A stretch of 58,571 bases of DNA, the filler included, from Sphacelaria rigidula (taxonomy: Eukaryota): the NCBI GenBank assembly GCA_964200075.2. It is 7 parts of 7 records of this genome, joined end to end, with 100 filler letters (N's around TTAATTAATTAA, not from the genome) between each part and the next. Parts side by side here need not be neighbours in the genome. Positions count along the whole stretch, not along the records: positions 41,910 to 50,190 come from CAXNAA020011664.1; 6 more parts are not named here. One strand, written 5' to 3'. The notes beneath the pieces are model-generated. The model was not told where the DNA came from. It saw only the letters and a list, made by a program, of their open reading frames with translations, and did not search any database. Shown in pieces: positions 3,807-49,132 of the stretch. How positions within the stretch are numbered: the first letter of the stretch is position 1; every line of letters starts with the position of its first letter. Position numbers and translations under genes: made by a program.

Positions 3807-5130
3807 TTGCCATTCGAGATAACCCTGCAATCTGGCGTTTCGCCAACGTCGTCTCGACCATATCGAACGAATCCCCTCCTCACCAAAAAAGTCAATGCTA
3901 TTTTGGATGCATACTTAGGAGCTGGTCTGATTTTACACTCGTCTCTCCCATGGGCCTCACCCCTCGTGGTCGTGCCCAAAAAAGATGGCAACATACGCAT
4001 CACAGTGAATTACAAACGGCTGAATCGCGTCACTGTCGTGGGAAAACTCCCCATACCTCGCATCGGCGAAGTCTTCCACTCTCTTGGCGAAGGAAAAATA
4101 TTTAGCACGTTCGACCTGGAATCTGGATTTTTCCAAAATGCAATTCACCCCGATACAGTTCCATTGACAGCGTTCTGTACATCTTCAGGGCTTCATGAAT
4201 GGCTTCGTATGCCACAAGGCGCTGCCACAGCACCTGACTGCTTTCAACGCCTCATGTAATGCGTTACTGACGGTCTCAAGCATGTTATCATGTATCTAGA
4301 CGATGCTATCGCTTTTGATGCCTCCCCCAAGGCGCATGTTTGCACTCTACGGGATTTCCTCTCCCGCTTGCATACACACGACTTGAAATTGTCTCCATCC
4401 GAAGCTCGACGAGGAGCTCGACGAGGAGCGACTGGATTAGATTTTTTGGGACACTCTATCTCCCCTGCTGGATTGCACCCAGACACGAACAAGGTCAAGG
4501 CTATGACTGACATGCCCATGCCCACCAATATTCTGAAGCTTCGCTCGCTGTTGGGCGGACTTTCTTATTATCGTAAATTTTTTCCCAACTTGTCCACGCG
4601 CATCCGGCCCATCACCGATTTATTGAAGAAACACGTCCCGTTTGTCTTCACTAAAGAAATGGAAGCTACCGTCCGCGAATTGCCCAAAATACTGACCGAA
4701 AAACCGGTTCTTTGTTTCCCGGAGGGGGATGCGGTACAAGACGGCTCACGTCTTTTCCAACTACACACCGATGCTAGCACAGATGGATTCGGCGCCGTTT
4801 TGAATCAGCCTCAACTGGATGGCTCTGTCCGATCTATTTTGTACATCAGCAGCGCAACCCTCCCAAACGAGGCAAACTGGAGCCCACTCGAACTAGAAGG
4901 CGGAGTCATAACTTGAGCTATTAAATGGCTTCGACAGTATTTGTTCCACGTGCCTTTCCACATCTGTACAGATCACGGAGCTCTTGAACAACTCGCTAAG
5001 GTTGGAGAACATGACCCCCGCGTACAACGGTGGGTGGAGTTCTCGACTGCTTATCAGTACACTGTTAAACACTTTCCGGGCGAAACCAACGGCAATGCTG
5101 ACCTTCTTTCGCGATTGCCTCTGCTCCCTA
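3807..5130 (+). pseudogene. pol: Reverse transcriptase + RNase H (disrupted)
   Basis: PWASPLVVVPKKDG, FSTFDLESGFFQ, MPQG, YLDD, FLGH, LHTDASTDGFGAVL, TDH, NGNADLLSR. Stops at 4257 and 4914. In-frame 12-bp duplication (ARRG x2) near 4404-4427. Confidence 0.92.
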
Positions 5131-12716: not shown

Positions 12717-13419
12717 ATAACAGTCCAGTGCGTAGCCACACATGCAACTGCTTGTAAGCCACACGGTCATGTTGAAGTCATACAGTAAACAGCCTCAGCG
12801 TTACAGTGCCGATCCGCGCATAAGAAGCAGCTATTTTGAGCGAGACCCGAAACCTTACTTGGGCGGCCGATATGATCGTCACGTTATATTTCGCCATTTC
12901 TCATGTCTTGCCAAGAAAAGTGTATCTGTTCCTTACTTTGGTCACTGCAGAACGATATTTGACGTACAACAAGTTGAATGATGTTCCGACAGGAGGGGCA
13001 GCATTGAGCGTAATCATCGGTTCAACCCACCGAGGGCAAAGACGCCTTGGGTCGCTGATAATGTTGCGTCTACATCTCCCTGCGGCCTCAACCTACACAT
13101 GCGTAGAGTTTCAGCATCATCAGACGTCAGGTGCGCCTTGTCTAGGCGTCCAACCTCCCAAAATACCGCCTCCATATTATTGAACGGGAACAACCTTGAC
13201 TTCTGTCACAACCGTCGTCCTCGTGACAGGAGCACAAAGATCCTGTACAGACTCAAAAGTGCGTGACACCCAATCGACTGATTCGGAGAAACCTCTTTTA
13301 CCCGAATCAACCGTTGAACTCCTATTACCTGGGATTCTCACACCCAGAATACCGCCCAAAAGTCGGCCTCAGTTGCCACCCTACTCGCTACTCGCAGTTT
13401 TCAGCCATGGGAGTATCGG

Positions 13420-14560
13420 CTCGACCAATTTGCACGTGGGGTATGCAAATAAGAGTGCGCAGGTCGCGAACGCCTCCAGAACCAACTCCACGATAAACCC
13501 ACTTTCAGTTCGAAGTGCTGCACACACGAAATAACGCTCAGTCGCGCTCCACAGCAGTCCACAACAGGGAAGGCAAGAAAGGCTCTTGTCGTAGGGCAGG
13601 CTCTTGTCGTAGGGCAGGCTCTTGTCGTAGGGCAGGAGATCACATACGTCGGCGGCGATGAGCTAGTTCTCTACTCGATATTGACGAGCCAACAGTCGTG
13701 TGGGTTCTTGGCCAACCGAGCACCACACATGCGCGATTGAATGGATGCTCTGAACACACCGACTGTATACGCATCAGCTGCTTGATATCGAGAATACCGT
13801 CTGTTGTACTGCTGTTGTACAAGATACCACGCTATGTGTACGCTGTGCAGGCTATCGAGGCGGCAGCACGAGTAGTAGGACTGTTCCTGTATCGTACTAT
13901 TTGTCACCTGTGTACAGAACACTACAAGCCCTGTAACAGTACAATACTCCGGCGTACTACAGTACTGTCCTAATGTTGCATGCTGTCCGCTGTACAGAGT
14001 GTACAGTCCGCATAGGAGGCAACAGGCAGCGTTACTTGTAGCACAAGGAGGGTGTGATTTCACAAGTTCACTGCCCTTCTTGCGTGCATACGGCCGTGTA
14101 TCATATACAAAAGTACTCAGCGTACCGCAGTCTCCATCAACATGTCATCATCTGCCCGGATACACTGTTTTCCCGCGCACAGGCTGCGGCAGGTGTGGAC
14201 AGTTGTGGCTACGTAATCGCACACACACATGATAGGATGACGCCACAGCATCAACATTCTTTTTGTTCTTCGAGAAATTGTCTCGAAGTGGTGCTTCAAG
14301 AAAAAACGATTCACTCACGTAACAACAATGATTCCCGGTGATGTCGAGCAGAGAACTCATCGCCGCCCACGTTTGCGGTATCCTGCCCTACAAGAAAAAT
14401 GTGTTGGGTGTTACTGCCCTGCTGTGAGCAGAGTGAGCCGCTGTGGAGTACGAATGTTGTTTCGTGTGTTCAGCACCTGAGATTGGGTTTCTTGCGGATT
14501 TGGCTCTGGAGGCGTTCGCGACCTGCTCGCTCTTATTGCATACCCCACGGCACGTCGGGA
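13420..14560. mobile_element. Non-autonomous long-TIR (Mutator/foldback-like) element
   Basis: ~13420-13682 is a degenerate reverse complement of ~14340-14560 (e.g. gtggggtatgcaaataagagtgcgcaggtcgcgaacgcctccaga vs tctggaggcgttcgcgacctgctcgctcttattgcataccccac). Confidence 0.6.
13580..13636 (+). repeat. 18-bp tandem repeat x3
   Basis: aggctcttgtcgtagggc repeated three times perfectly. Confidence 0.95.
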
Positions 14561-15827
14561 GTATCTCTCAAATACTATTCCGAAACGAGGCATACCAAGA
14601 ACCCACCCATGATCCGCAAGTTTGGAATGTATCACAGTAGTGTGGAGGCCTAGATTATTGCCCTTTGATGCCACTCAGCGTTGTTATACCTGAAATTTAC
14701 GGCGCTACGCTATAGTTGCACGGGGTCGAGGCACCAATTTCTTCTGCGGATGGTATGGCATGTTTTCAAATCGAGGGGTAACTAGCTGCAGAGACCACGA
14801 CCATGTCCACGGGAACAATGCTGCGAGCGACATGAGTTTCAATAAGGAGAACTGCGCCCCTTGATATGCATTGCAGTTATACATGCATGCATCATATGCG
14901 GACATACATACATACCTCATTGTATAGTCAATCCACCGTGCAAGATAGGGCCACTTTGATGCGGATGCAGTCGGCTGCGGCTCTCCTGTCTTCTGCTGAA
15001 GCACCCGTCTCTTGTCGTATTTTAATTTTGACTGCTAACGCTTCCGTCATTATCTTGGATAATACATGATATTTGACGTACGCATCTGACGTTGCTATTC
15101 AAACTGCAGCACCTTCCTGTATCACATCAAGCCTCCATATATCAACATCCATCTCTCAGAGTCCGAAAATTCACCATTTTTTCTTGCGATAGGTACTTCT
15201 TGTTTTCAGCCGACGACTATCTGCACTGGACGGCCTGTGGTACCAAAGTGCCCCACACAGGTCAGGAACACTAAGTCCGAAAAACAGAGAAGGGCAACAT
15301 GCAACATGAACTTCTTGAGTTTGTAGTATACACCTGACCAATTCCTTCGTCGCTGGCTCTTGCAATGACCCACCCGCATCTACCTTTCGTTGGTGCTATG
15401 CGCAGCACGGTGCAGTACCGCCAGTGCAGTGGAAAATGTAAGAGCTTTACTGCTGCTTCATGCGGGTGAAACAAAGCTGGGTGTGCCTTTCGTTCTTCTT
15501 CCTGTTCGCACAACGAATCTTGAATCTTCATGGCTCCCTCTCGTGTCCTGCGCTGCAGTGTGGATCGAATAAAGTCACAAGGTCATCCAACAAACGCATA
15601 TTTCAGCATACGTCATATTCCGACTCTCAGATAACAACTCATGCTGCACCAAGTGCGAGATGGCTGTAATGCGGACCGCGTGCTTTTTGGATTCCATCGG
15701 AGTTCAACCCTTGGACCGCAAGGGAGTCCATTTGGATCATGCATACTTTTTTTCAAGTGAAATTGATGCCGATTCAGCAGATGTCCTTCTCTTTACGTCT
15801 GAGGGTTCAACACCCCTATGGTCCGTG

Positions 15828-15875
15828 TTAGGGTTGGGGTTAGGGTTAGGGTTAGGGTTAGGGTTAGGGTTAGGG
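15828..15875 (+). repeat. Interstitial telomere-like (TTAGGG)n tract
   Basis: About 8 units including one TTGGGG variant. A shorter CCCTAA tract lies at ~17506-17523. Confidence 0.85.
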
Positions 15876-16918
15876 GCGCGGTCCTTGCAGGGACTGTTCC
15901 GAGCGGTCTTGAAAAATATCGGTCCCTGGGTATTTTCAACTCCGATGTGGTCCAATAAGCACGCGATCCGCTCACGCACTACAATGACAACCCAAATCTC
16001 GCTCCACGCGGCCGACAACAGTCAGGGAGGCTGTAGCGCGAGCACCGTATCATACGAAGTACAAGTAGATGGCCCGAAGTGGGCTATGGCCGCACAGGCA
16101 AAACTTCCCTCACAATGCAGCAAGTCAAGGGCAAACAGCGCGCTACTCGGCCATGCTCGACCAGCAACATAGTCAGTCGGGGTTATGCCGTCGGCCCTGG
16201 AGCAGCGGTCTGTTGAAAATCCGTATGTACCGGTGTTGTAGTCTATGGTACAAACGAGTTTCGCCACACGTCATAAAGGTGCCAAATCTACCCTTGTTGT
16301 GGCACCCCCGTTCGCAGCGACGGAAACAACCTTCATACTCGTAACGTCGTCGTACTATCCAATCTTCGAACGAACACAATGCGGGGGAACCCTGGCATGC
16401 AGTGAATCGCCAAAACAATTGCGGGTCAACCGTAGCACTCTCTGCGGAGAAACAGGAAAGGAAGGTAGCGTATATCATTTTCTCCTGTGGGAATCTCTCG
16501 GACCTTGCCAGGCTCCCATTTTCGGTGCCTGGTCATTAGGCTGAATGACGGAGCCATGGGATGTTTTCAAGGCGATATATTCGACGCCAGTACGAGCTGG
16601 GCCAGCCTAAAAACGGATTTAAGCTCTAAAAGCAATATCTCATCGACACAGACGAGTTGGGCCGTNNNNNNNNNNNNNNNNNNNNNNNNNNNNNNNNNNN
16701 NNNNNNNNNTTAATTAATTAANNNNNNNNNNNNNNNNNNNNNNNNNNNNNNNNNNNNNNNNNNNNGAGTCAGGGGGATTCAGTCAGCACGAGTCAACTTC
16801 TTATACTAAAACCAAGTACTTTCCTGACGAATCATTATTTGTTCTAACCGTGAATACTTTTAAATGGCATGCGGTAGGATGGTGGTCGTCCATGTTCCAG
16901 AGGTCATATCAAACCTTT

Positions 16919-17180
16919 CAAGGGTCGGACAAATCAATCATTTGTCTGGAAATTACTTTGGCTTAGTGAAATTGATTCGAATCGTACGAATCAATCTCTA
17001 GGCCTTGTTTTCAGCGTTGCAACCCAGGTACACGCAGCCCAGACACATGGAACGGCGCAAAAGTTGCGTGGATACATACCCCTTGGACCAGCGGTCAACG
17101 TTTTTCTCCCTTTTGAGCAATCAGATCGAAGAAATCGTGGTTTGGTGATCCGAGCCCATGATGATTCGTCCTAACCGTCA
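16919..17180. mobile_element. ~260-bp MITE family copy
   Basis: Ends agggtcggacaaatc / gattcgtcctaaccgt form imperfect TIRs. A reverse copy lies at ~25455-25712 and partial copies at ~16775-16852, ~50585-50731 and ~58498-58571. Confidence 0.7.
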
Positions 17181-41774: not shown

Positions 41775-43994
41775 CTTCACATTAAAAACCGTTTCGATAT
41801 CTGCGCGGTNNNNNNNNNNNNNNNNNNNNNNNNNNNNNNNNNNNNNNNNNNNNTTAATTAATTAANNNNNNNNNNNNNNNNNNNNNNNNNNNNNNNNNNN
41901 NNNNNNNNNTTCCTTCCTGTGCCATGAGGTCATGAACCTCTCCGTTCCCTGCAGCACTTCCGCGTGCCACGGCAACCCCCCCTCGTGTGAGAAAAAATCC
42001 GTCAGACGGTTTTGAGGTTACCGACTGAGCCACCGGGGCGACTGAAACCCCCAAACTAGTGTCCATTCCATATCAGGCACTGCCGCGCGAATTTTGGTTA
42101 GCAAGAAATTTTCACTCGGAGAGTGCAGAGAGGACCGTGTGTGTGCGTGAGTGAATCGTCATGGTTTCTTTCAAAATTTACGTGTGATCTTGGTCATGAG
42201 TGAGCGAACGGTAAACGAACGCTAGTTGACACCGTTATGCCTACAGGCCGTCCGGGGAATGGACGGGTCCTCTTGCGCCTCTTCCGATGTTCAGGGGGTA
42301 ACACGTATCGTACGTCCTCGGTAGATGTGTCTCAAGAGTTCCAATCCAAGACGTTGACCTTGACGCTTCGCACCTCCATCGTATTGCACGAATCAGGATC
42401 TCTGTGATACACATCCTCTCGAAAGCCAACCACGAATTGGAGGAAATGATCGTACTCAGCCGGAAAGTGTGAAGTGCTTGTGCGACCTAAACGTTCATCT
42501 CCTCGACCCCTCGAGTTCAATAGTCTCATGGCCATGGTCTGCATGAACATGAGTACAACCCCCTCGAGTTCCAAGAGGCATCACTTCCTCGTGTCGGATA
42601 TTGTCCTCACACACATCAACATTTTCCCCAAATTTCGCAAGACCAACGTGTTGGATGTCTGTTCACAACAAGTACTTGCTTCCATGAACACCACACGCGG
42701 ATCACAAACTGGAACAAGGGCTCAACTGTAACCTCGAGACATTACACGGGTTAAGAGTGGTACTCCTAACCGGTAGTCACCGATCCAGGGTTTTCATGTA
42801 GTATGTCCGATAGGGGACAGCAGGAGAACCATGGATGCATAATTTTCATCAATAACACTAGGGTATTTTCATGTCTCGCTCCATCACGTTTCGTGGACAT
42901 GATCTTGGTCCAAGACAATATCCAAGAGGTCAAAGACACGACACCTGTAGTATGACTTCACAAGTTCGACCATTCATCCAGATTGACATTTACCGCCTCC
43001 ACGGTTCACACCATACCGCTGTGTGGGTGTAGTGTCGTGCGGTTTAACCAGGGCACCAGTGTGAAAAATATATATTGCATACCGTTGCTGTTCATGTCTC
43101 TGTTCCATCTCTTTTTTTCTCTCTGTTGTGCTCGGGGAGGGCTCCCTCTCACCATTCTCGTCGTGTATTTCCCATTTTTGTGGTAATGTGTCTCGTGAGA
43201 GGTCAGGATACGGTGCTGGAAAGGCGAGCTTGAGTCCCACGTACGGAAATGATGGTGACAAAATAATTATAGTCGTGCCCCGACAATGTAACCTACATCC
43301 CATCTCTCGAAGACGTGTTGGAGTGGTAGAGAAATGACACTGCTTAGCCCTGGACTGCGGGATGAGTCTTTCTGGATCATGCCTATTTTCTTCACTTCTA
43401 GTTGATGCGGGTCGTCGTCATCATCATGTATCCGAATGGCGGGCGTAGTATCTCATGTTGGAGCGAAGGACTATAATAGAACGACGCTGGGCCGGGAACC
43501 GGTACCAGTTGTTGACCACCCCGAAGTGGCTCTTGTTCCAACATCGCGGGTGGGGATCATCAACTCACGACGCGAGGCTCAGACATCACTTCGAGACTCT
43601 CGGCCATGAGGCGTGCTGGCTGAGCTCGTGATGAGGAGTCTCCGACACGTAACGAATGTGTCACGCCCTTACTCGGACGAGATCGTGGATCTACTCCGGA
43701 GTGAATGGAGCAGTACAGTTGCCAACCCCACGACCACCAGATGTGAGCGCACGCACCGCACCATATTTTTCAAGTGCGAGTATGTCGCCACTTGAAAAGC
43801 TGGATAGGGTTGGTCGACCATGATCAAAAACAGCAGTCGAATATAATTCGTCGTTCATTCTTCCCCGTACAGAGCAAGCCTCACGCAGCGCACAACAGGT
43901 CCAACACCCGAACACCCTCTTTGTACAAGTCTACCACCGCGGCCACGCACTCTTTCGTTCTCTACCCGTCAGCAACTGGACCAAGTCAGGCGTC

Positions 43995-44043
43995 CTACAT
44001 GCTTCCTGCCACATGCCAGGCACGGATGATGCCATCAGTGTAC
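43995..44043 (-). CDS. RACK1: RACK1 exon 8 (terminal)
   Basis: [15 protein letters not shown] then TAG. Confidence 0.92.
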
Positions 44044-47000
44044 CTTTGGAAGCGGGCGAGATACGGCACATAGTGGGGGGGGGGGGGGGGGGGGGGGGGA
44101 AAGGAAGGAGGTTTTTTTTTGGATTTTTGTTTTGGGGTTTTTTTTGGAAGAAAATCCCAACAGGAATTCCNNNNNNNNNNGGGGTGGGGGGGGGGGGGGG
44201 GGGGGGGGGGGGGGTGGGGGGGGGGGGGGGGGGGGGGGGGGGCGGAAGTGATCGATGTTATGTTTTGGAATTTTGATCTCGGGATATTTCGTGACGTGAA
44301 TGCCATCAGGACTTCCGCTTCAAGAACTATATGGAAACCTCACTGGGCGTTCATTTGGAATGATCTACTCAGGCGCTATACTCAAATAGCATGTGATTGC
44401 CCGTAAGCGCGACATCGCTCGCGTGACCTCCAAACGGGAAACAATTTTTTTTTCCTTCCGAATCGCGATGGGCCAACGCCAGCTGGTACTCACCCGGAGT
44501 AGAGGATGCTGCCGTTGTTGGACCAGCAGAGGCAAGTGCAGTACGGCACGATCGCCTTTGGAGACAAGAGCTCGGGGAACTCAGGTCGGAGCTCGTCCAC
44601 CACCACCTTCGACTCGAGGTCCCAGATCTGGTTCAAAGCGTCGTGCACAGAATAATCAGAGGAATTTCATCGAACCAAGAGCGAGTCAAATTTCGGCGTC
44701 ATGCATGTAACGTGTGGATTCGTCGCACGAAGAACCCAAACAACTCAAGCTTTATCATGATGCTGCGGACAGTGGAACAGTGTAGCAGATTTCTCATGGC
44801 ATTCTCCCAGCAACTCCACCCGTTAGATCCACAGACAACATTGGACACAAATGGGGTTGGGGTTGGGGTTGGGGTTTCTTCATGTTGCGGTACTCCTCAG
44901 GCACACACCTTGATGCCTACAGTGGTGGCTGCGCACAGCCAGTAGCGGTTCGGCGAGAAGACGAGCGAGTGGATGATATCACCAGCATCGAGCGAGTACA
45001 GACGTTTGCCCTCCTTGAGATCCCACAACATGGCCGTGCCATCCTTGCCACCGGAGGCGCACAGAGACCCATCAGGCGACACCGTCACGGTGTTCAAGTA
45101 TCTGCTCGAACCACGTAACACGCGTCACAGCGAGAAAATTGTCAGATTTGATTCTTGATATTGGAAAACCAAAATGAACGTGCTGATTGAGGGCGAAAAA
45201 CGAAAAATGGTCGTTCCACAGGATGTTGTTCAGAGACGGAATATTTTGCAAAAGTTCAACAGTAACCATGACCAACACCAACGGAATTATCCTGCTGTGA
45301 CAATATATTTCTCATATGCACGACAGAATACTTTTTCCGAGGCGGCTCGGCTTCCAGACTGTATCAGTCGACAGGTCATACCACGCACGGAATCCTTTGC
45401 CAATTGTACGCAATTTTCTTGCGTCCAACAGACCAGGAGCGTGGCAGGCTTTTAAAACTGATTTTGTTTTTTTTCTTCGGGCTCATGACACCCCTCGTCA
45501 ATTTCACGCTCTCCCCTTTTTGGGCCGTGCGCGTACGAATCGAGGGGCAACGCCTGCTGACACCCGGGCATCCTTTACATCACAAAAAATAGGTCACTAT
45601 CATATCGCAATTGAGTAAGGTATCATCCTCACACGACCAAAATACCTCAGCGACCACTCATACCCATGTAGAAATGGGGTCACGAACCTACCAAATACTG
45701 GAGGCGATGCTGATGGGGCTACGATCATACTCGCTCACCCGGTATGGCCGATGAGGTTCGTGTGCAGCTTGCAGTTCGATAAAGCCCAGACCTTCACCAG
45801 CTTGTCCCATCCCGCGGACACGATTACCGGCGCAGACGGCGAAGGCGAGAATCGTACACAGGATACCCACTCGGTGTGACCCTGAATCCACGACACGAGA
45901 AGATCGAGTCGGGCATCAATGAGGACCGTACAAGGGCATATGGAATTGTTCGAACGCTTGCTCCCGCAGAGGACAAACGGAGATTTCTCTGGTGAGTCAA
46001 CCGTAGTAGTGCAGTTGCATGCAAGTTGAGCAGAATTCATGATAAAGCTCACAAAATGTCGGCTGCAGCGGTGTTTGTTCGCTCAAATAAAGTCCCAGAC
46101 ATCGATACAACCGGACTTGTACACAAACCGAAGGATGGAATCACACGTGCCAAGGGCATGCAAAAAAATCATGTATCAGTCGACAGGTCTTACCACGTAC
46201 GGAATCCTTTGCCAATTGTACGCAATTTTCTCGCGTCCAACAGACCGGGAGCGTGGCAGGCTTTTAAAACTGATTTTGTTTTTATTCTTCGGGCTCATGA
46301 CACCCCTCGTCAATTTCACGCTCTCCCCTTTTTGGGCCGTGCGCGTACGAATCGAGGGGCAACGCCTGCTGACACCCGGGCATCCTATACGTAACAAAAA
46401 GACTGATGGCAACAAGAGAGTAAGGTACTACCCTCATACGACCACAAAACACCCTCCCGTGGACGGGGTTTGGTGAAAATCTTGAGGGTTTGCACGTGCT
46501 CATATGTGAAATTGGCAACATGAGCGGTGGGAATTAACTCGTATTTGAAATTTGTGTTGGGAAATCATGTTTCGTCTCCGCGGTGAAGGATTCAAAACGA
46601 ACAATAATGGCCAACAAGCCATGGTAGTCTTCCATGCCAGGACTGGAAGATGCAGATTTCGTCATGACAGATACGCGAACCCCGAGACACTTAGTTGAAT
46701 GACGAATTTTGATATAGCCACGAGCAGTCTGTCGTCATGGACGTCGCCTTTGTGGCTCTACCTAGTTCAGATTCGTCACGACTGTGGGGGAAAGGGGATC
46801 TTTCAAATACGAGTCCGCCTTCCTTTTCGTGAAGAAACGAAGAGCCAGTCTCATTACTCACATCTTCCTGAATAGTATACTTGCACTCGCCGAGGGTGTT
46901 CCACAACTTGATGGTTTTATCGCGAGATCCGGACACGATTTGCCTGAAGACGAGACAAAGGATGGAAGCCAAGTTGCAAATCGGTGTGAACACGGGGCCT

Positions 47001-48423
47001 ATATACTAGCTTTTCGGCATAGTAACGGGACCTCTTGCCAAAACAGCGCAGTGCGCCGGATTCCCATGCTTTTTATACAGACACATGTACTAGCTTTTCG
47101 GCATGGTAACGGGACCTCTTGCCTACAGCGCAGTGCGCTGGCATCCCGTGCTATTTATACAGAGCGATCCTTCGCGACCTGCAAATTCTGTATATACTAC
47201 ACGAGATGTTGATATCTGATGCGGGTCAACTTGAATGTCATGCGCAGCCACCGGAGAGCGAACGTCCATCTTCAACCTTTACCGGTTATCGGCGGAGAAG
47301 GCGACGGAAAGCACGTCCTTGGCATGGCCAACGAACCGCCGGGTGGTGCGGCCAGACTGTATCTCCCACAACCGCAGCGTTCCATCCCATGATCCGGACC
47401 TATACAGCGGTTATATGTGCGCGAGGGAGGTGGGTAAGAATGCATCAGACAACTTCGTATCAAGTCGCGATGTACCTTCGCCGCGGGGCCTTCACATTAT
47501 GACAAGCGACGAGCAACTCTTTCTTTCAGCGAGTTGAATGTAAGAATCGCACATGCCCCTAGCCAGCGATTCGTCCCCAGACAATCAAGCTCGCAGTGTG
47601 TGACAGCGTCATCAAGCGCGGTACAACTCTGCTGGCTTGCACGGCCCGATCACGCAATGCCACATTACTCACAGGGCAAACTGTCCGTCTGAAGAGATGA
47701 CCACCTCAGACACAAAGTGGGAGTGTCCGGTGAGAGATCTGTGAGGGTAACCGTACTGGTCCTCGCCACGCTGGAGCTTCCACACGATGATGCTCTTGTC
47801 GCGAGACGAGGACACGATCATGTCGGGGTTCTGGTTCCGTTTAAATCAAAAATTTCAACAACAAAAAAGTTCAGAGTGGACAGTGAGGGGAATGGTCAAA
47901 ATAATCACCCTGACACGCGCATGCTGTACTTCCTGCAGCAAGGTGACAAAACAGTTGTTTTGCACAGAAAATCTTGGTGTTTACACAAGTGGAAGGTTCT
48001 GTTGCAAGGTTACGGCAGCAGCGTCTTACGTTCCGTCATGCTCAGGGTCTCGGATGTGGATAGACAGGCACTTCCCCGTCGAAAGGCACGAGCCTGGCTG
48101 GTGCACACATGGAAAAGGTACCAGGCGGGCATGAACCGGACGGGATACACAGGTGTCTCCGAAACTCGCGAAGAACACAGTTCACGACAGAGGTGATCAG
48201 CATGGTCCAAGACACGAGAAGCTGCGGACACGCTACTCAGCCCAACAACCCCTCTAGCAATACAGACGCGCAACACCACCCATCGATGAGGTTTCTGGTG
48301 CACAACTTCGAATTCAAATTCTTCGCAAACTCTAATGATCTTCACCTCCGAGGTTGCGGCGATAGAGGTGACCCAATCCTCATGCGCCACCAGCTGGCCG
48401 CGGAACTTGAGCTGGTCTCCCAT
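43995..48423 (-). CDS. RACK1: Receptor for activated C kinase 1 (40S WD40 protein), 8 exons, 317 aa
   Basis: Exons 48346-48423, 47673-47830, 47283-47399, 46862-46943, 45739-45881, 44909-45101, 44494-44627 and 43995-44043. All introns are GT-AG with consistent phases; total 954 nt. Peptides [47 protein letters not shown] and [21 protein letters not shown] are characteristic of RACK1. Confidence 0.97.
44494..44627 (-). CDS. RACK1: RACK1 exon 7
   Basis: [17 protein letters not shown]...[11 protein letters not shown] with AG/GT borders. Not in the supplied ORF track. Confidence 0.93.
44909..45101 (-). CDS. RACK1: RACK1 exon 6
   Basis: [11 protein letters not shown]...[12 protein letters not shown] with AG/GT borders. 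Confidence 0.95.
45357..45574 (-). ncRNA. Intronic box H/ACA snoRNA candidate, copy 1 (RACK1 intron 5); predicted guide for the LSU site equivalent to yeast 25S Psi2975
   Basis: Two hairpins, H box AGAAAA (45471-45476) and ACA (45360-45362). 3' pocket ACCUGUC / UAAAA is complementary to LSU GACAGGU-U-AG-UUUUA, 14 nt from ACA. Confidence 0.75.
45739..45881 (-). CDS. RACK1: RACK1 exon 5
   Basis: [13 protein letters not shown]...LIGHT with AG/GT borders. Confidence 0.95.
46169..46386 (-). ncRNA. Intronic box H/ACA snoRNA candidate, copy 2 (RACK1 intron 4)
   Basis: Near-identical to copy 1. H box AGAATA, ACA at 46172-46174. Similarity between the copies stops right after ACA. Confidence 0.75.
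46862..46943 (-). CDS. RACK1: RACK1 exon 4
   Basis: [27 protein letters not shown] with AG/GT borders. Confidence 0.95.
47004..47163. repeat. ~84-bp tandem duplication in RACK1 intron 3
   Basis: tactagcttttcggcatrgtaacgggacctcttgcc...cagcgcagtgcgc...tttatacaga present twice. Confidence 0.9.
47283..47399 (-). CDS. RACK1: RACK1 exon 3
   Basis: [38 protein letters not shown] with AG/GT borders. Confidence 0.95.
47673..47830 (-). CDS. RACK1: RACK1 exon 2
   Basis: [19 protein letters not shown]...SDGQFA|GTGAGT. Confidence 0.95.
48346..48423 (-). CDS. RACK1: RACK1 exon 1
   Basis: [26 protein letters not shown] then GT. Confidence 0.93.
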
Positions 48424-48814
48424 GATTGCAGAGTAAAGTACAAGGAAAAGCGACGAAGGGCTGCGTGAGACTTGTGTGGTCACGTGGGGTTATCGAAGGC
48501 GGCGAGATAAAAGTAAAGGGGGGGTGCAATTTGAACGCAGGGGGGGGTGCTGAAGAAGGGGGTACCATGAAAATGTGAGGGGGGCTTGGGCGCACCAGAG
48601 GAAGGCCAAGCCCGTGAACGAGTCCAGCTGCCGGTGTGGGCAACCCTGACTTTTTCGGTCTCGCTGGTGGTCCCTACATCGCTGCACCGTCTACTGCTAA
48701 TCGCATTAGGTCTTGAGTCCCTTCGTAAACGCCACTTTCTATCAAGAAGCACCTCAGATCGTGTCATCCGAAGACAGCTGGTAGGCCCACGGGCAGCAGG
48801 CTCACACGATAGCA
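48424..48814. promoter_or_regulatory. Putative bidirectional promoter (RACK1/NMD3)
   Basis: 391 bp between divergent start codons. Both 5' UTRs and promoters must lie here unless there are non-coding upstream exons. Confidence 0.6.
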
Positions 48815-49132
48815 ATGAGCACGGCGATGACAATGGATGTTGTGCCGCCTGCTGCCGCCACAGCGGCGCCGACAGATGGCCTGGCAGCGCCCCCGGCACC
48901 CAAGACTGAAAAGCAGATGCCTACGGTGCTATGCTGCATGTGCTCGCTACCTATCCCGCCCAATCCGACCAGTATGTGTGTTCTTTGCATCAGGACACAA
49001 GTGGATATCACGGAAGGTATAGCGACAAATCTAACCATTCATCAATGCCGTGGCTGCCAGAGGTACCTCCGACCGCCCTGGGTAGAGGCGAAGCTTGAGA
49101 GTCGGGAGCTAATGGCTGTGTGTTTGAGGAAG
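48815..49132 (+). CDS. NMD3: 60S ribosomal export adaptor NMD3, first coding exon (rest of gene beyond the contig)
   Basis: VLCCMCSLPIPPNPTSMCVLCIRTQVDITEGI...CRGCQRYLRPPWVEAKLESRELMAVCLRK followed by a GTGGGT donor. The start Met is uncertain (several in-frame ATGs). Confidence 0.92.

What the first reader, a model, noticed from the sequence alone, without database searches (positions are those of the whole stretch)
45357..46386. Duplicated, unusually long H/ACA snoRNA in RACK1 introns 4 and 5, predicted to pseudouridylate LSU rRNA next to the peptidyl-transferase centre
Seen: a ~218-nt segment is near-identical in two different introns, on the RACK1 sense strand, and identity ends exactly after an ACA triplet. 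It folds as hairpin 1 (CGGGU/GCCCG, GCCCCUCG/CGAGGGGU), then H box (AGAAAA or AGAAUA), hairpin 2 (AUCAGU/ACUGAU, UGCCACG/CGUGGUA) and ACA. One inter-copy change keeps pairing (A-U to G-U in CGCAA/UUGCG). The 3' pocket strands ACCUGUC and UAAAA give 7+5 bp with the conserved eukaryotic LSU sequence GACAGGU-U-AG-UUUUA, and the pocket top is 14 nt from ACA. One G opposite G is non-canonical. Established: this U is yeast 25S Psi2975 (snR42 target; vertebrate ACA27/SNORA27 is assigned the equivalent site). RACK1/ASC1 introns host box C/D snoRNAs in yeast (snR24) and human (SNORD95, SNORD96A). Inference: here the same host gene carries a different, H/ACA-class cargo that was recently cis-duplicated or homogenised.
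Basis: partly seen in the sequence, partly recalled or inferred. Interest (0 to 1): 0.85.

Follow-up and report, generated by a model that had tools for sequence, protein, structure and literature searches.

The report
Twin H/ACA snoRNA genes in RACK1 introns
Two neighbouring introns of the ribosome-associated RACK1 gene each carry a copy of a textbook pseudouridine-guide RNA (box H/ACA snoRNA) aimed at two conserved spots of large-subunit ribosomal RNA; it is a well-built but ordinary new member of a very well-known RNA class.

Summary
A 215-nt block (window 45360-45574 and 46172-46386, minus strand) is 97.7% identical between introns 5 and 4 of a minus-strand RACK1 gene. Identity stops exactly at an ACA triplet. 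The 5' flank has decayed to 67% identity and the 3' flank to none.

Each copy has the full box H/ACA layout:
- hairpin, H box (AGAAAA or AGAAUA), hairpin, ACA;
- open pockets 13-14 nt from the boxes.

New here: the 5' pocket is the stronger guide. It makes 7+7 contiguous pairs with a conserved LSU loop 137 nt further 3', which by register equals human 28S Psi4659.

Only 2 copies lie in the window, and a DNA-like run suggests about two genome-wide.

Not shown: a mature RNA, pseudouridine at either site, or conservation in relatives. No related genome was reachable, the RNA contigs showed only spliced mRNA and low-level intron, and one metagenome scan found 0 homologues. Rfam gives only a weak sub-threshold match to plant snoR137.

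Verdict: very probably a real, duplicated H/ACA snoRNA. It is a new member of a known kind, of modest interest.

The parts
45357..45574 (-). snoRNA copy A in RACK1 intron 5. Predicted RNA of about 215 nt: a 5' leader of about 8 nt, hairpin 1, H box, hairpin 2, ACA plus 3 nt.
   Evidence: Identity block 45360-45574. Two-hairpin minimum-energy fold. The 3' end at 45357 is inferred from the ACA+3 rule and was not observed.
46169..46386 (-). snoRNA copy B in RACK1 intron 4.
   Evidence: Identity block 46172-46386. Both halves fold as in copy A. The full-length minimum-energy fold differs.
45478..45566 (-). Copy A hairpin 1. Its pocket strands are GUCAGCAGGCGUU (45549-45561) and GUCAUGA (45483-45489). 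Copy B equivalents: 46290-46378, 46361-46373 and 46295-46301.
   Evidence: There are 13 nt between the upper stem and the H box. No difference between the copies in this hairpin.
45471..45476 (-). H box: AGAAAA in copy A, AGAAUA in copy B (46283-46288). Both fit ANANNA.
45363..45462 (-). Copy A hairpin 2. Its pocket strands are UUAAAAG (45449-45455) and ACCUGUC (45370-45376). Copy B equivalents: 46175-46274, 46261-46267 and 46182-46188.
   Evidence: There are 14 nt from the pocket-closing G to the ACA.
45360..45362 (-). ACA box of copy A (copy B: 46172-46174). The identity between the copies ends here.
45102..45738 (-). RACK1 intron 5, the host of copy A.
   Evidence: A spliced joint 45101->45739 (skips 637, CT..AC on the + strand) in contigs of 3 of 3 RNA-like runs.
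45882..46861 (-). RACK1 intron 4, the host of copy B.
   Evidence: Loose ends at 45881 read on into the sequence at 46862 in 3 of 3 RNA-like runs. GUGAGUA at the 5' end and UCUUCAG-type AG ends are seen in the sequence.
44000..48420 (-). RACK1 host gene, about 8 exons. The outer bounds are approximate.
   Evidence: Exon translations. Exon 6 matches RACK1 structures at E 1.1e-39. Exon contig depth is 13,000-17,000 in RNA-like runs.

Best explanation
Each copy is an intron-encoded box H/ACA small nucleolar RNA of about 215 nt.

Inferred from the known pathway of intronic H/ACA RNAs: the RNA is transcribed as part of the very highly expressed RACK1 pre-mRNA. It is bound co-transcriptionally by the dyskerin/Cbf5-Nop10-Nhp2 core. 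It is freed by splicing and debranching, then trimmed by exonucleases to a few nt 5' of hairpin 1 and 3 nt after the ACA.

Each hairpin holds one pseudouridylation pocket.
- The 3' pocket (UUAAAAG / ACCUGUC) pairs with LSU rRNA GACAGGU-[U]-AG-UUUUA. It places under the synthase the U at the base of the helix that carries the A2602-equivalent bulge. That helix abuts the central loop of the peptidyl-transferase centre. The U equals yeast 25S Psi2975 and human 28S Psi4522.
- The 5' pocket (..AGGCGUU / GUCAUGA) pairs with UUAUGAC-[U]-G-AACGCCU. This is a conserved loop about 80 nt 3' of the sarcin-ricin loop, and the U equals human 28S Psi4659.

The two copies arose by a DNA-level copy of the unit plus some 5' flank into the neighbouring intron. 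Since then the RNA body has been held constant, by selection or by local homogenisation, while the flanks decayed.

Shown: sequence, fold, geometry, complementarity, copy number in the window, host gene, splicing. Inferred: processing, RNP assembly, both pseudouridines.
For: 1. Architecture. Hairpin, ANANNA, hairpin, ACA. Copy A's minimum-energy fold is exactly this. Both halves of both copies fold alike.

2. Geometry. There are 13 nt between the upper stem and the H box, and 14 nt between the pocket closure and the ACA. That puts the target 14-15 nt from each box.

3. The 3' pocket. Its best site is the predicted U in 4 of 4 full rDNA units (12 pairs; next best 9-10). Register checks:
- The Rfam LSU consensus places it 52 nt 3' of the A-loop UGU.
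- Yeast Um2921/Gm2922/Psi2923 then give 2975. Positions 2944, 2946, 2948 and 2959 also fall on the right letters (table seen).
- Human 4468-4470 give 4522, which is Psi at 98%.

4. The 5' pocket. It has 7+7 contiguous pairs in 46 of 99 eukaryotic LSU loci. It is the top site in 2 of 4 full units. The target U lies 137 nt after the first site in 28 of 89 loci (range 134-155). In the 3 of 89 loci that fit all 21 human modified letters between 4468 and 4659 without gaps, +137 is this U. That equals 4659, which is Psi at 87%.

5. Strict contiguous scoring against shuffled pockets, on one unit:
- 5' pocket: 23 of 2000 (with G-U allowed), 1 of 2000 (Watson-Crick only).
- 3' pocket: 30 of 2000 (with G-U allowed), 1 of 2000 (Watson-Crick only).

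6. Known sites. By my count of the table, human rRNAs carry 106 Psi. The unit used has 1414 U. A random best site would therefore fall on a known Psi position at most about 7.5% of the time, yet both pockets do.

7. Constraint. The body is 206 of 211 identical, against 67 of 100 in the 5' flank and none in the 3' flank, and the identity ends at ACA. The 5 differences fall as follows:
- the free fifth position of the H box;
- a 1x1 internal loop;
- one A-U to G-U change;
- two helix ends.
None touches a pocket, a box-defining letter or hairpin 1.

8. Orientation and host. The unit is in sense orientation, one per intron, in a translation-machinery gene with exon contig depth 13,000-17,000.

9. 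Rfam. The only family with any similarity is a plant H/ACA snoRNA, snoR137. Its consensus 3' hairpin has pocket strands UUaAAC / ACCUGUC (18.6 bits, E 0.47 on 246 bases).
Against: - No RNA with the predicted ends was seen. Contigs over the copies in the RNA-like runs are long intron pieces (558-1039 nt) at depth 2.5-7.5.
- No Rfam family reaches its gathering score: 0 matches in the whole window. snoR137 scores 18.6 against a threshold of 44. SNORA27 and snR42 give nothing up to E 10.
- With a permissive score (G-U counted as a full pair, one mismatch per arm), shuffled pockets do as well in 40 of 500 (5' pocket) and in 67 and 102 of 500 (3' pocket, two rDNA units). Complementarity alone is not decisive.
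- My strict scheme for the 3' pocket (3 unpaired letters) was chosen after seeing the site.
- The 3' pocket has a G opposite G next to the target, or else needs the pocket-closing C-G pair to open.
- The 5' pocket's site is not its best site in 2 of 4 units (absent from the top five in L058, second in L107). The full 7+7 match fails in 53 of 99 LSU loci, mostly through changes in the upstream arm.
- The organism's own rRNA was not available.
- Copy B's full-length minimum-energy fold is not the H/ACA fold.
- No relative could be examined, so there is no covariation evidence beyond one G-U change.
Confidence: 0.8

Rival explanations
1. A young, neutral copy of intron sequence, made by intragenic duplication or by a gene-conversion tract between introns 4 and 5. 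It folds like an H/ACA RNA by accident and makes no stable RNA.
For: There are only two copies to compare. No mature RNA was seen. There is no Rfam match at threshold. Permissive shuffles reach the pocket scores in 8-20% of trials. A conversion tract could also give high identity inside diverged flanks.
Against: A chance fold would have to supply all of the following at once:
- ANANNA and ACA at the right places;
- two open pockets 13-14 nt from the boxes;
- two best rRNA sites that both fall on positions that are pseudouridine in human rRNA.
The identity also ends exactly at the ACA. None of the 5 differences touches a pocket or a box-defining letter.
Confidence: 0.08
2. A real H/ACA-class RNA whose work is not what the pockets suggest. 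Only one pocket may be active, or it may be an orphan or Cajal-body guide, or it may act as a pre-rRNA chaperone without modifying either predicted U.
For: The 3' pocket carries a G-G mismatch next to the target. Yeast has no listed pseudouridine 3' of 2975 in the table seen, so the second site is not universal. The organism's own rRNA and its modifications are unknown.
Against: There is no UGAG (CAB-type) motif in either apical loop. The one UGAG lies at the junction of the pocket and the lower stem. Both pockets have their best or near-best sites in rRNA at known human Psi positions.
Confidence: 0.09
3. A fragment of a dispersed repeat or mobile element that happens to lie in two introns.
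For: It is a repeated sequence in non-coding DNA, and the whole genome could not be searched.
Against: A sensitive blastn of the unit against the 58,571-nt window finds the 2 copies and nothing else above 16 nt. In the DNA-like run X5, contigs over the shared part have depth 34-58 against 23-27 for the single-copy flanks. That suggests about two copies; the tool warns that depth is not a copy number. No inverted repeats of 40 nt or more lie within 43000-49000. The copies have the same orientation as the host gene.
Confidence: 0.03

Closest known systems
Yeast snR42 and human SNORA27 (ACA27), the H/ACA guides for 25S Psi2975 and 28S Psi4522
   Same: Same RNA class and the same predicted target U for one pocket. 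snR42 is listed for Psi2975 (table seen). SNORA27 is listed for 28S-4522 (table seen). The register was checked. SNORA27 is also intronic in a ribosome-related gene, RPL21.
   Different: No detectable sequence or structure similarity to either Rfam family up to E 10. SNORA27's second target is 28S-3694, whereas here the second pocket points to the equivalent of 28S-4659. The host gene is different.
Plant snoR137 (Rfam RF01433)
   Same: The only Rfam family with any match. Its consensus 3' hairpin has the same 3' pocket strand, ACCUGUC, a near-identical 5' strand (UUaAAC against UUAAAAG), and the same stem/box layout.
   Different: 18.6 bits against a gathering score of 44. The 5' hairpin does not align (61 model positions against 11 nt). 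snoR137 is 146 nt, intergenic, and in print has only an 18S target for pocket 1 (Psi1208) and none for pocket 2 (table seen). Shared descent and convergence on one rRNA site cannot be told apart here.
snoRNAs hosted by RACK1/ASC1 elsewhere: yeast snR24 and human SNORD95
   Same: Same host gene and the same intronic, sense-strand arrangement. snR24 lies in the ASC1 intron (passages read). SNORD95 is listed with host RACK1 (table seen).
   Different: Those are box C/D methylation guides with other LSU targets. Here the cargo is box H/ACA, and it is present twice, in consecutive introns.

Membership tests
Box H/ACA snoRNA (pseudouridylation guide) | Hairpin-hinge-hairpin-tail secondary structure | tested here: met
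   Copy A's minimum-energy fold. Both halves of both copies give the same hairpins. Copy B's full-length minimum-energy fold differs.
Box H/ACA snoRNA (pseudouridylation guide) | H box ANANNA in the single-stranded hinge | tested here: met
   AGAAAA (copy A) and AGAAUA (copy B), directly after hairpin 1.
Box H/ACA snoRNA (pseudouridylation guide) | ACA directly after hairpin 2 and 3 nt from the mature 3' end | tested here: inconclusive
   ACA follows the lower stem with no spacer, and the inter-copy identity ends on it. The mature 3' end was not observable.
Box H/ACA snoRNA (pseudouridylation guide) | Internal pocket whose top lies 14-16 nt from the H or ACA box | tested here: met
   13 nt (hairpin 1) and 14 nt (hairpin 2) lie between the pocket top and the box, so the target sits at 14-15.
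Box H/ACA snoRNA (pseudouridylation guide) | Two-part complementarity of the pocket strands to rRNA or snRNA around an unpaired U | tested here: met
   The 3' pocket makes 7+5 pairs and is the best site in 4 of 4 rDNA units. The 5' pocket makes 7+7 pairs in 46 of 99 LSU loci. Strict shuffles reach these scores in 30 and 23 of 2000; permissive shuffles in 67-102 and 40 of 500. The test used rRNA of other eukaryotes, not the organism's own.
Box H/ACA snoRNA (pseudouridylation guide) | Stable RNA bound by dyskerin/Cbf5, Nop10, Nhp2 and Gar1 | not testable with these tools
   Only assembled contigs of 3 RNA-like runs were available. They show intron-length pieces, not a mature RNA.
Box H/ACA snoRNA (pseudouridylation guide) | Pseudouridine present at the predicted target | not testable with these tools
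   No modification data exist here for this organism. The equivalent human positions 4522 and 4659 are Psi, and so is yeast 2975.
SNORA27 / snR42 sequence families (Rfam) | Match to the family covariance model at its gathering score | tested here: not met
   0 matches at gathering in the window. Neither family is listed up to E 10.
snoR137 (Rfam RF01433) | Match to the family covariance model at its gathering score (44 bits) | tested here: not met
   18.6 bits, and only the 3' hairpin aligns.
Cajal-body H/ACA RNA (scaRNA) | CAB box (UGAG) in an apical loop | tested here: not met
   The apical loops are A-rich (AAAAA, GAAAA). The single UGAG lies at the junction of the pocket and the lower stem.

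The most novel reading that the evidence does not exclude
RACK1 may be a deep-time snoRNA host whose cargo has turned over between classes: C/D in yeast and human, H/ACA here. This one RNA would then join two guide functions that are not combined in human SNORA27, the Psi2975/Psi4522-equivalent next to the peptidyl-transferase centre and the Psi4659-equivalent 3' of the sarcin-ricin loop. If both pseudouridines exist in this lineage, the second would be an old eukaryotic modification that budding yeast lost. The two near-identical copies in consecutive introns would be a dosage device tied to one of the most highly expressed genes.
Probability: 0.45. Interest if true: 0.35.

Novelty: new member of a known kind. 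Interest (0 to 1): 0.25.

Why it matters
- It gives a concrete, testable prediction of two rRNA pseudouridines, one beside the peptidyl-transferase centre. I found no description of individual snoRNAs for such algae. The one paper seen only says that Ectocarpus snoRNA loci were predicted by program (passages read).
- It adds a clean example of a snoRNA copied into a neighbouring intron, with a sharp contrast between the conserved RNA body and the decayed flanks.
- It shows that the same host gene can carry different snoRNA classes in different eukaryotes.
- For annotation, it marks two conserved intron blocks that should not be taken for repeats or exons.
- None of this changes what is known about how H/ACA RNAs work.

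Tried and rejected
- Whole-genome copy count: no genome is held for this window.
- Sequencing runs: 8 runs of 2 studies hold intron 5, and no RNA holder is listed.
- Reads laid on 44880-46140 for 4 of those 8 runs. Three runs carry spliced RACK1 contigs, so they contain RNA. The intron parts, including the copies, are covered only by low-depth contigs that are not bounded by the snoRNA ends. This says nothing either way about a mature, non-polyadenylated RNA.
- Homologues elsewhere: a gapped pattern of both 3'-pocket strands plus the top of the lower stem found 0 matches in metagenome contigs. No collection of related eukaryotic genomes was reachable, so conservation and covariation could not be tested. 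A RACK1-protein scan of metagenomes was considered.
- Viral contigs as a source of rRNA: 57 matches to the 15-letter target motif. Only 2 (L020, L030) are LSU fragments, and both lack a normal 5'-pocket site.
- A literature search for the target motif as a word found 0 papers. A search for '28S-4659' found 0 papers, so the human guide for Psi4659 was not identified.
- A search combining 'ACA snoRNA' with brown-alga terms was badly designed. None of its 15 listed papers held the snoRNA term.
- 'RACK1' + 'ACA snoRNA' + 'intron' gave 10 papers. I read passages from 2 of them. Neither describes an H/ACA RNA in a RACK1 intron. I made no fuller check of print, and supplementary tables of snoRNA catalogues could not be seen.
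- Other snoRNAs in the gene: a crude C/D-box scan of the minus strand gave 0 candidates. The tandem pair in intron 3 has no Rfam match and no better-than-shuffle fold.
- Reading the repeat as protein-coding: only short frames without start-to-stop sense cross it. Not pursued.
Full report
**What is in the sequence**

The window holds one direct repeat family in 43000-49000: 2 copies of 229 nt at 45360-45588 and 46172-46400, 97% identical, 812 nt apart. No inverted repeats of 40 nt or more were found.

Read on the minus strand in a 223-nt frame, the copies differ at positions 2, 6, 109, 146, 161, 195, 203, 222 and 223. This leaves a single block, positions 7-221, with 5 differences in 215 letters. 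In window coordinates the block is 45360-45574 and 46172-46386. Its last three letters are ACA, after which the copies share nothing.

Global alignments against 200 shuffles give:

| Segment | Identical letters | Score | Shuffles |
|---|---|---|---|
| Body | 206 of 211 | 201 | mean -9.5, max 6.5 |
| First 100 nt of 5' flank | 67 of 100 | 16 | mean -3.6, max 10 |
| Next 67 nt of 5' flank | 40 of 67 | -5 | mean -6.2 |
| First 100 nt of 3' flank | 54 of 100 | -11.5 | mean -6.1 |

So the copying event took some 5' flank along. That flank has since decayed, while the body has not.

A sensitive blastn of the unit against all 58,571 bases finds these 2 copies and otherwise only matches of 16 nt or less at E 0.43 or worse.

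**The host gene**

Stop-to-stop frames on the minus strand give a run of WD-repeat exons. The 64-aa exon at 44909-45100 matches RACK1 chains of solved ribosomes at E 1.1e-39, aligned to residues 194-257 of 317.

I laid contigs of four public runs on 44880-46140.
- Three runs (X1-X3) carry a joint 45101->45739 that skips 637 nt, with CT..AC on the + strand. That is GT..AG on the minus strand.
- Those runs also have loose ends at 45881 that continue into the sequence at 46862, and loose ends at 44909 that continue into the next exon.
- Exon contigs have depth 13,000-17,000. Intron contigs have depth 2.5-7.5.

So intron 5 is 45102-45738 and holds copy A. Intron 4 is 45882-46861 and holds copy B. 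Both copies are in the sense orientation, about 255 and 290 nt upstream of the 3' splice sites.

The fourth run (X5) covers exon and intron evenly at depth 23-27 and has no spliced joint, so it behaves like DNA. Over the shared part its depth is 34-58. This fits about two copies and not a high-copy repeat, although the tool warns that depth is not a copy number.

**Is it an H/ACA RNA?**

Copy A's minimum-energy fold is hairpin, single-stranded hinge, hairpin, tail (-77.8 kcal/mol, z -2.99, 0 of 200 shuffles as stable). Copy B's full-length minimum-energy fold is a different long-range fold (-74.6, z -2.70, 3 of 200). Folded half by half, both copies give the same two hairpins.

The geometry is as follows.

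| Feature | Hairpin 1 | Hairpin 2 |
|---|---|---|
| Lower stem | CGGGU/GCCCG | AUCAGUU/GACUGAU |
| Upper stem | GCCCCUCG/CGAGGGGU | UGCCACG/CGUGGUA |
| Pocket strands | GUCAGCAGGCGUU and GUCAUGA | UUAAAAG and ACCUGUC, closed by one C-G pair |
| Gap from pocket top to box | 13 nt to the H box | 14 nt to the ACA |

- The H box is AGAAAA in copy A and AGAAUA in copy B. Both fit ANANNA.
- The ACA follows the lower stem of hairpin 2 directly.
- These spacings place a target U 14-15 nt from each box, as the family rule asks.
- There is no UGAG in an apical loop, so nothing points to a Cajal-body RNA.

The five inter-copy differences fall as follows:
- the free fifth letter of the H box;
- a 1x1 internal loop;
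- an A-U to G-U change;
- two helix ends.

None lies in hairpin 1, in a pocket strand or in a box-defining letter.

The predicted length is about 215 nt. By my recollection that is long for plant and animal H/ACA RNAs but within the yeast range. I did not test this.

**Database families**

Rfam gives 0 matches at gathering score in the whole window. With relaxed thresholds the only H/ACA family is plant snoR137, at 18.6 bits against a gathering score of 44 (E 8.9 on 4.7 kb; E 0.47 on 246 bases).

Only the 3' hairpin aligns. The family consensus there has pocket strands UUaAAC and ACCUGUC, nearly the same as here. In print, snoR137 has only an 18S target for pocket 1 and none for pocket 2 (table seen). 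SNORA27 and snR42 do not appear up to E 10.

This is a lead for shared or convergent guide function. It is not membership.

**The 3' pocket target**

The organism's rRNA is not in the window and no genome is held, so I fetched eukaryotic rRNA from other sources.
Two of these (L020, L030) are LSU fragments.
- The Rfam LSU consensus printed shows the motif in fully conserved letters.
- The target U closes the helix that carries the bulged A. That helix directly abuts the multi-branch loop of the peptidyl-transferase centre.

Register against published tables:
- The target U lies 52 nt 3' of the last U of the A-loop UGU.
- The yeast table lists Um2921, Gm2922 and Psi2923, so the target is 2975. 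That is listed as Psi, guided by snR42.
- In the same register, positions 2944, 2946, 2948 and 2959 fall on U, A, C and C, as the table requires.
- The human table lists Um4468, Gm4469 and Psi4470, so the target is 4522, which is Psi at 98%.
- SNORA27 is listed for 28S-3694 and 28S-4522, with host RPL21.

Four of them hold complete SSU, 5.8S and LSU. In 4 of 4, the best site for the 3' pocket over all three rRNAs is this U (7+5 pairs; next best 9-10).

One weakness is a G opposite G next to the two unpaired letters. An alternative register avoids it: the closing C-G pair opens, and the C pairs with that G. This also gives 7+5 pairs, one of them G-U.

**The 5' pocket target (not in the finding)**

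The same loci show that the 5' pocket is complementary to GAUUAUGRC-[U]-G-AACGCCU. The 3' strand makes 7 pairs and the last 7 letters of the 5' strand make 7 more, all contiguous, with two letters left unpaired as the rule asks.
- The full 7+7 match (G-U allowed) is present in 46 of the 99 loci that have at least 250 nt after the motif.
- Of the other 53, 49 keep the site. Among the variants listed, nearly all keep the downstream arm and differ in the upstream arm. That arm is one strand of a covarying rRNA helix. The remaining 4 lack a recognisable site.
- It is the top site in 2 of 4 complete units, second in one, and not in the top five of one.

The target U lies 134-155 nt after the first target. 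The mode is 137, seen in 28 of 89 usable loci. Human 4659 minus 4522 is 137, and 28S Psi4659 is listed at 87%.

As a register check, I asked which loci carry the right letter at all 21 human modified positions from 4468 to 4659 without gaps. Three of 89 do, and in all three the letter at +137 is this U. Yeast has no listed Psi beyond 2975.

The site lies about 80 nt 3' of the sarcin-ricin loop motif (sequence printed).

**How much could be chance**

| Scoring | 5' pocket | 3' pocket |
|---|---|---|
| Permissive (G-U counted as full pair, one mismatch per arm) | 40 of 500 | 67 and 102 of 500 (two rDNA units) |
| Strict contiguous, G-U allowed | 23 of 2000 | 30 of 2000 |
| Strict contiguous, Watson-Crick only | 1 of 2000 | 1 of 2000 |

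The figures are the numbers of shuffled pockets that reach the observed score. The permissive result is weak. The layout used for the 3' pocket in the strict test was chosen after seeing the site.

Independently of these scores, at most 106 of the 1414 U in the test unit can be equivalent to a human Psi (my count of the table; U count). That is about 7.5%, yet both best sites are such positions.

Taken with the boxes, the spacing and the conserved body between decayed flanks, an accidental look-alike is unlikely. These are rough figures, not a formal test.

**What was not shown**

- No run on record as RNA holds the stretch.
- The contigs that do cover the copies are intron-length pieces. This is what poly(A)-type libraries would give whether or not a mature snoRNA exists.
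- A gapped pattern for the 3' hairpin found nothing in metagenome contigs.
- No related eukaryotic genome could be searched, so there is no conservation or covariation evidence beyond the single G-U change.

**Comparison and verdict**

It works like, and meets the testable defining features of, a box H/ACA pseudouridylation guide.
- One pocket shares its target with yeast snR42 and human SNORA27, without detectable sequence kinship.
- The other pocket points to a site that is modified in human but not listed in yeast.
- RACK1 as host is shared with yeast snR24 (passages read) and human SNORD95 (table seen), which are box C/D RNAs.
- Copies of one snoRNA in neighbouring introns of one host gene are, by my recollection, a common pattern. 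I did not test this.

I file it as a new member of a known kind, with confidence 0.8 that it is a functional H/ACA snoRNA pair. By my estimate, each individual target assignment has roughly two-in-three odds. Interest is modest, at 0.25.

Noticed in passing
window 47004-47163 (RACK1 intron 3): Two head-to-tail units of about 78 nt, with 69 of 76 aligned letters alike and one 2-nt gap. There is no Rfam match. The fold is not better than shuffles (z -1.8). Tandem Repeats Finder did not report it. Function unknown.
   Followed up: partly
window 45625-45655 and 46425-46455 (minus strand, 45-75 nt upstream of each snoRNA copy): A block of about 32 nt of residual similarity (GGUCGUnUGAGG..UACCUUACUC) survives in the otherwise decayed 5' flank of both copies. 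It may be only a remnant of the duplicated segment.
   Followed up: no
window 44075-44243: Long poly-G runs around a 10-N gap inside the last RACK1 intron. It looks like an assembly gap or a low-quality stretch.
   Followed up: no
window 44852-44876: (TGGGGT) repeated 4.2 times in RACK1 intron 6.
   Followed up: no
L020 and L030 (viral-collection contigs): Two contigs filed as viral carry 3' fragments of a eukaryote-type LSU rRNA gene in an AT-rich setting. L020 scores 126.8 bits and is cut at its 5' end; L030 scores 57.4 bits. This could be contamination or a host fragment.
   Followed up: no
Rfam snoR137 consensus: The plant family's second pocket (UUaAAC / ACCUGUC) is complementary to the same LSU site (equivalent to yeast Psi2975). 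The 2009 table seen lists no target for that pocket, so a target assignment for the plant RNA may have been missed there.
   Followed up: partly
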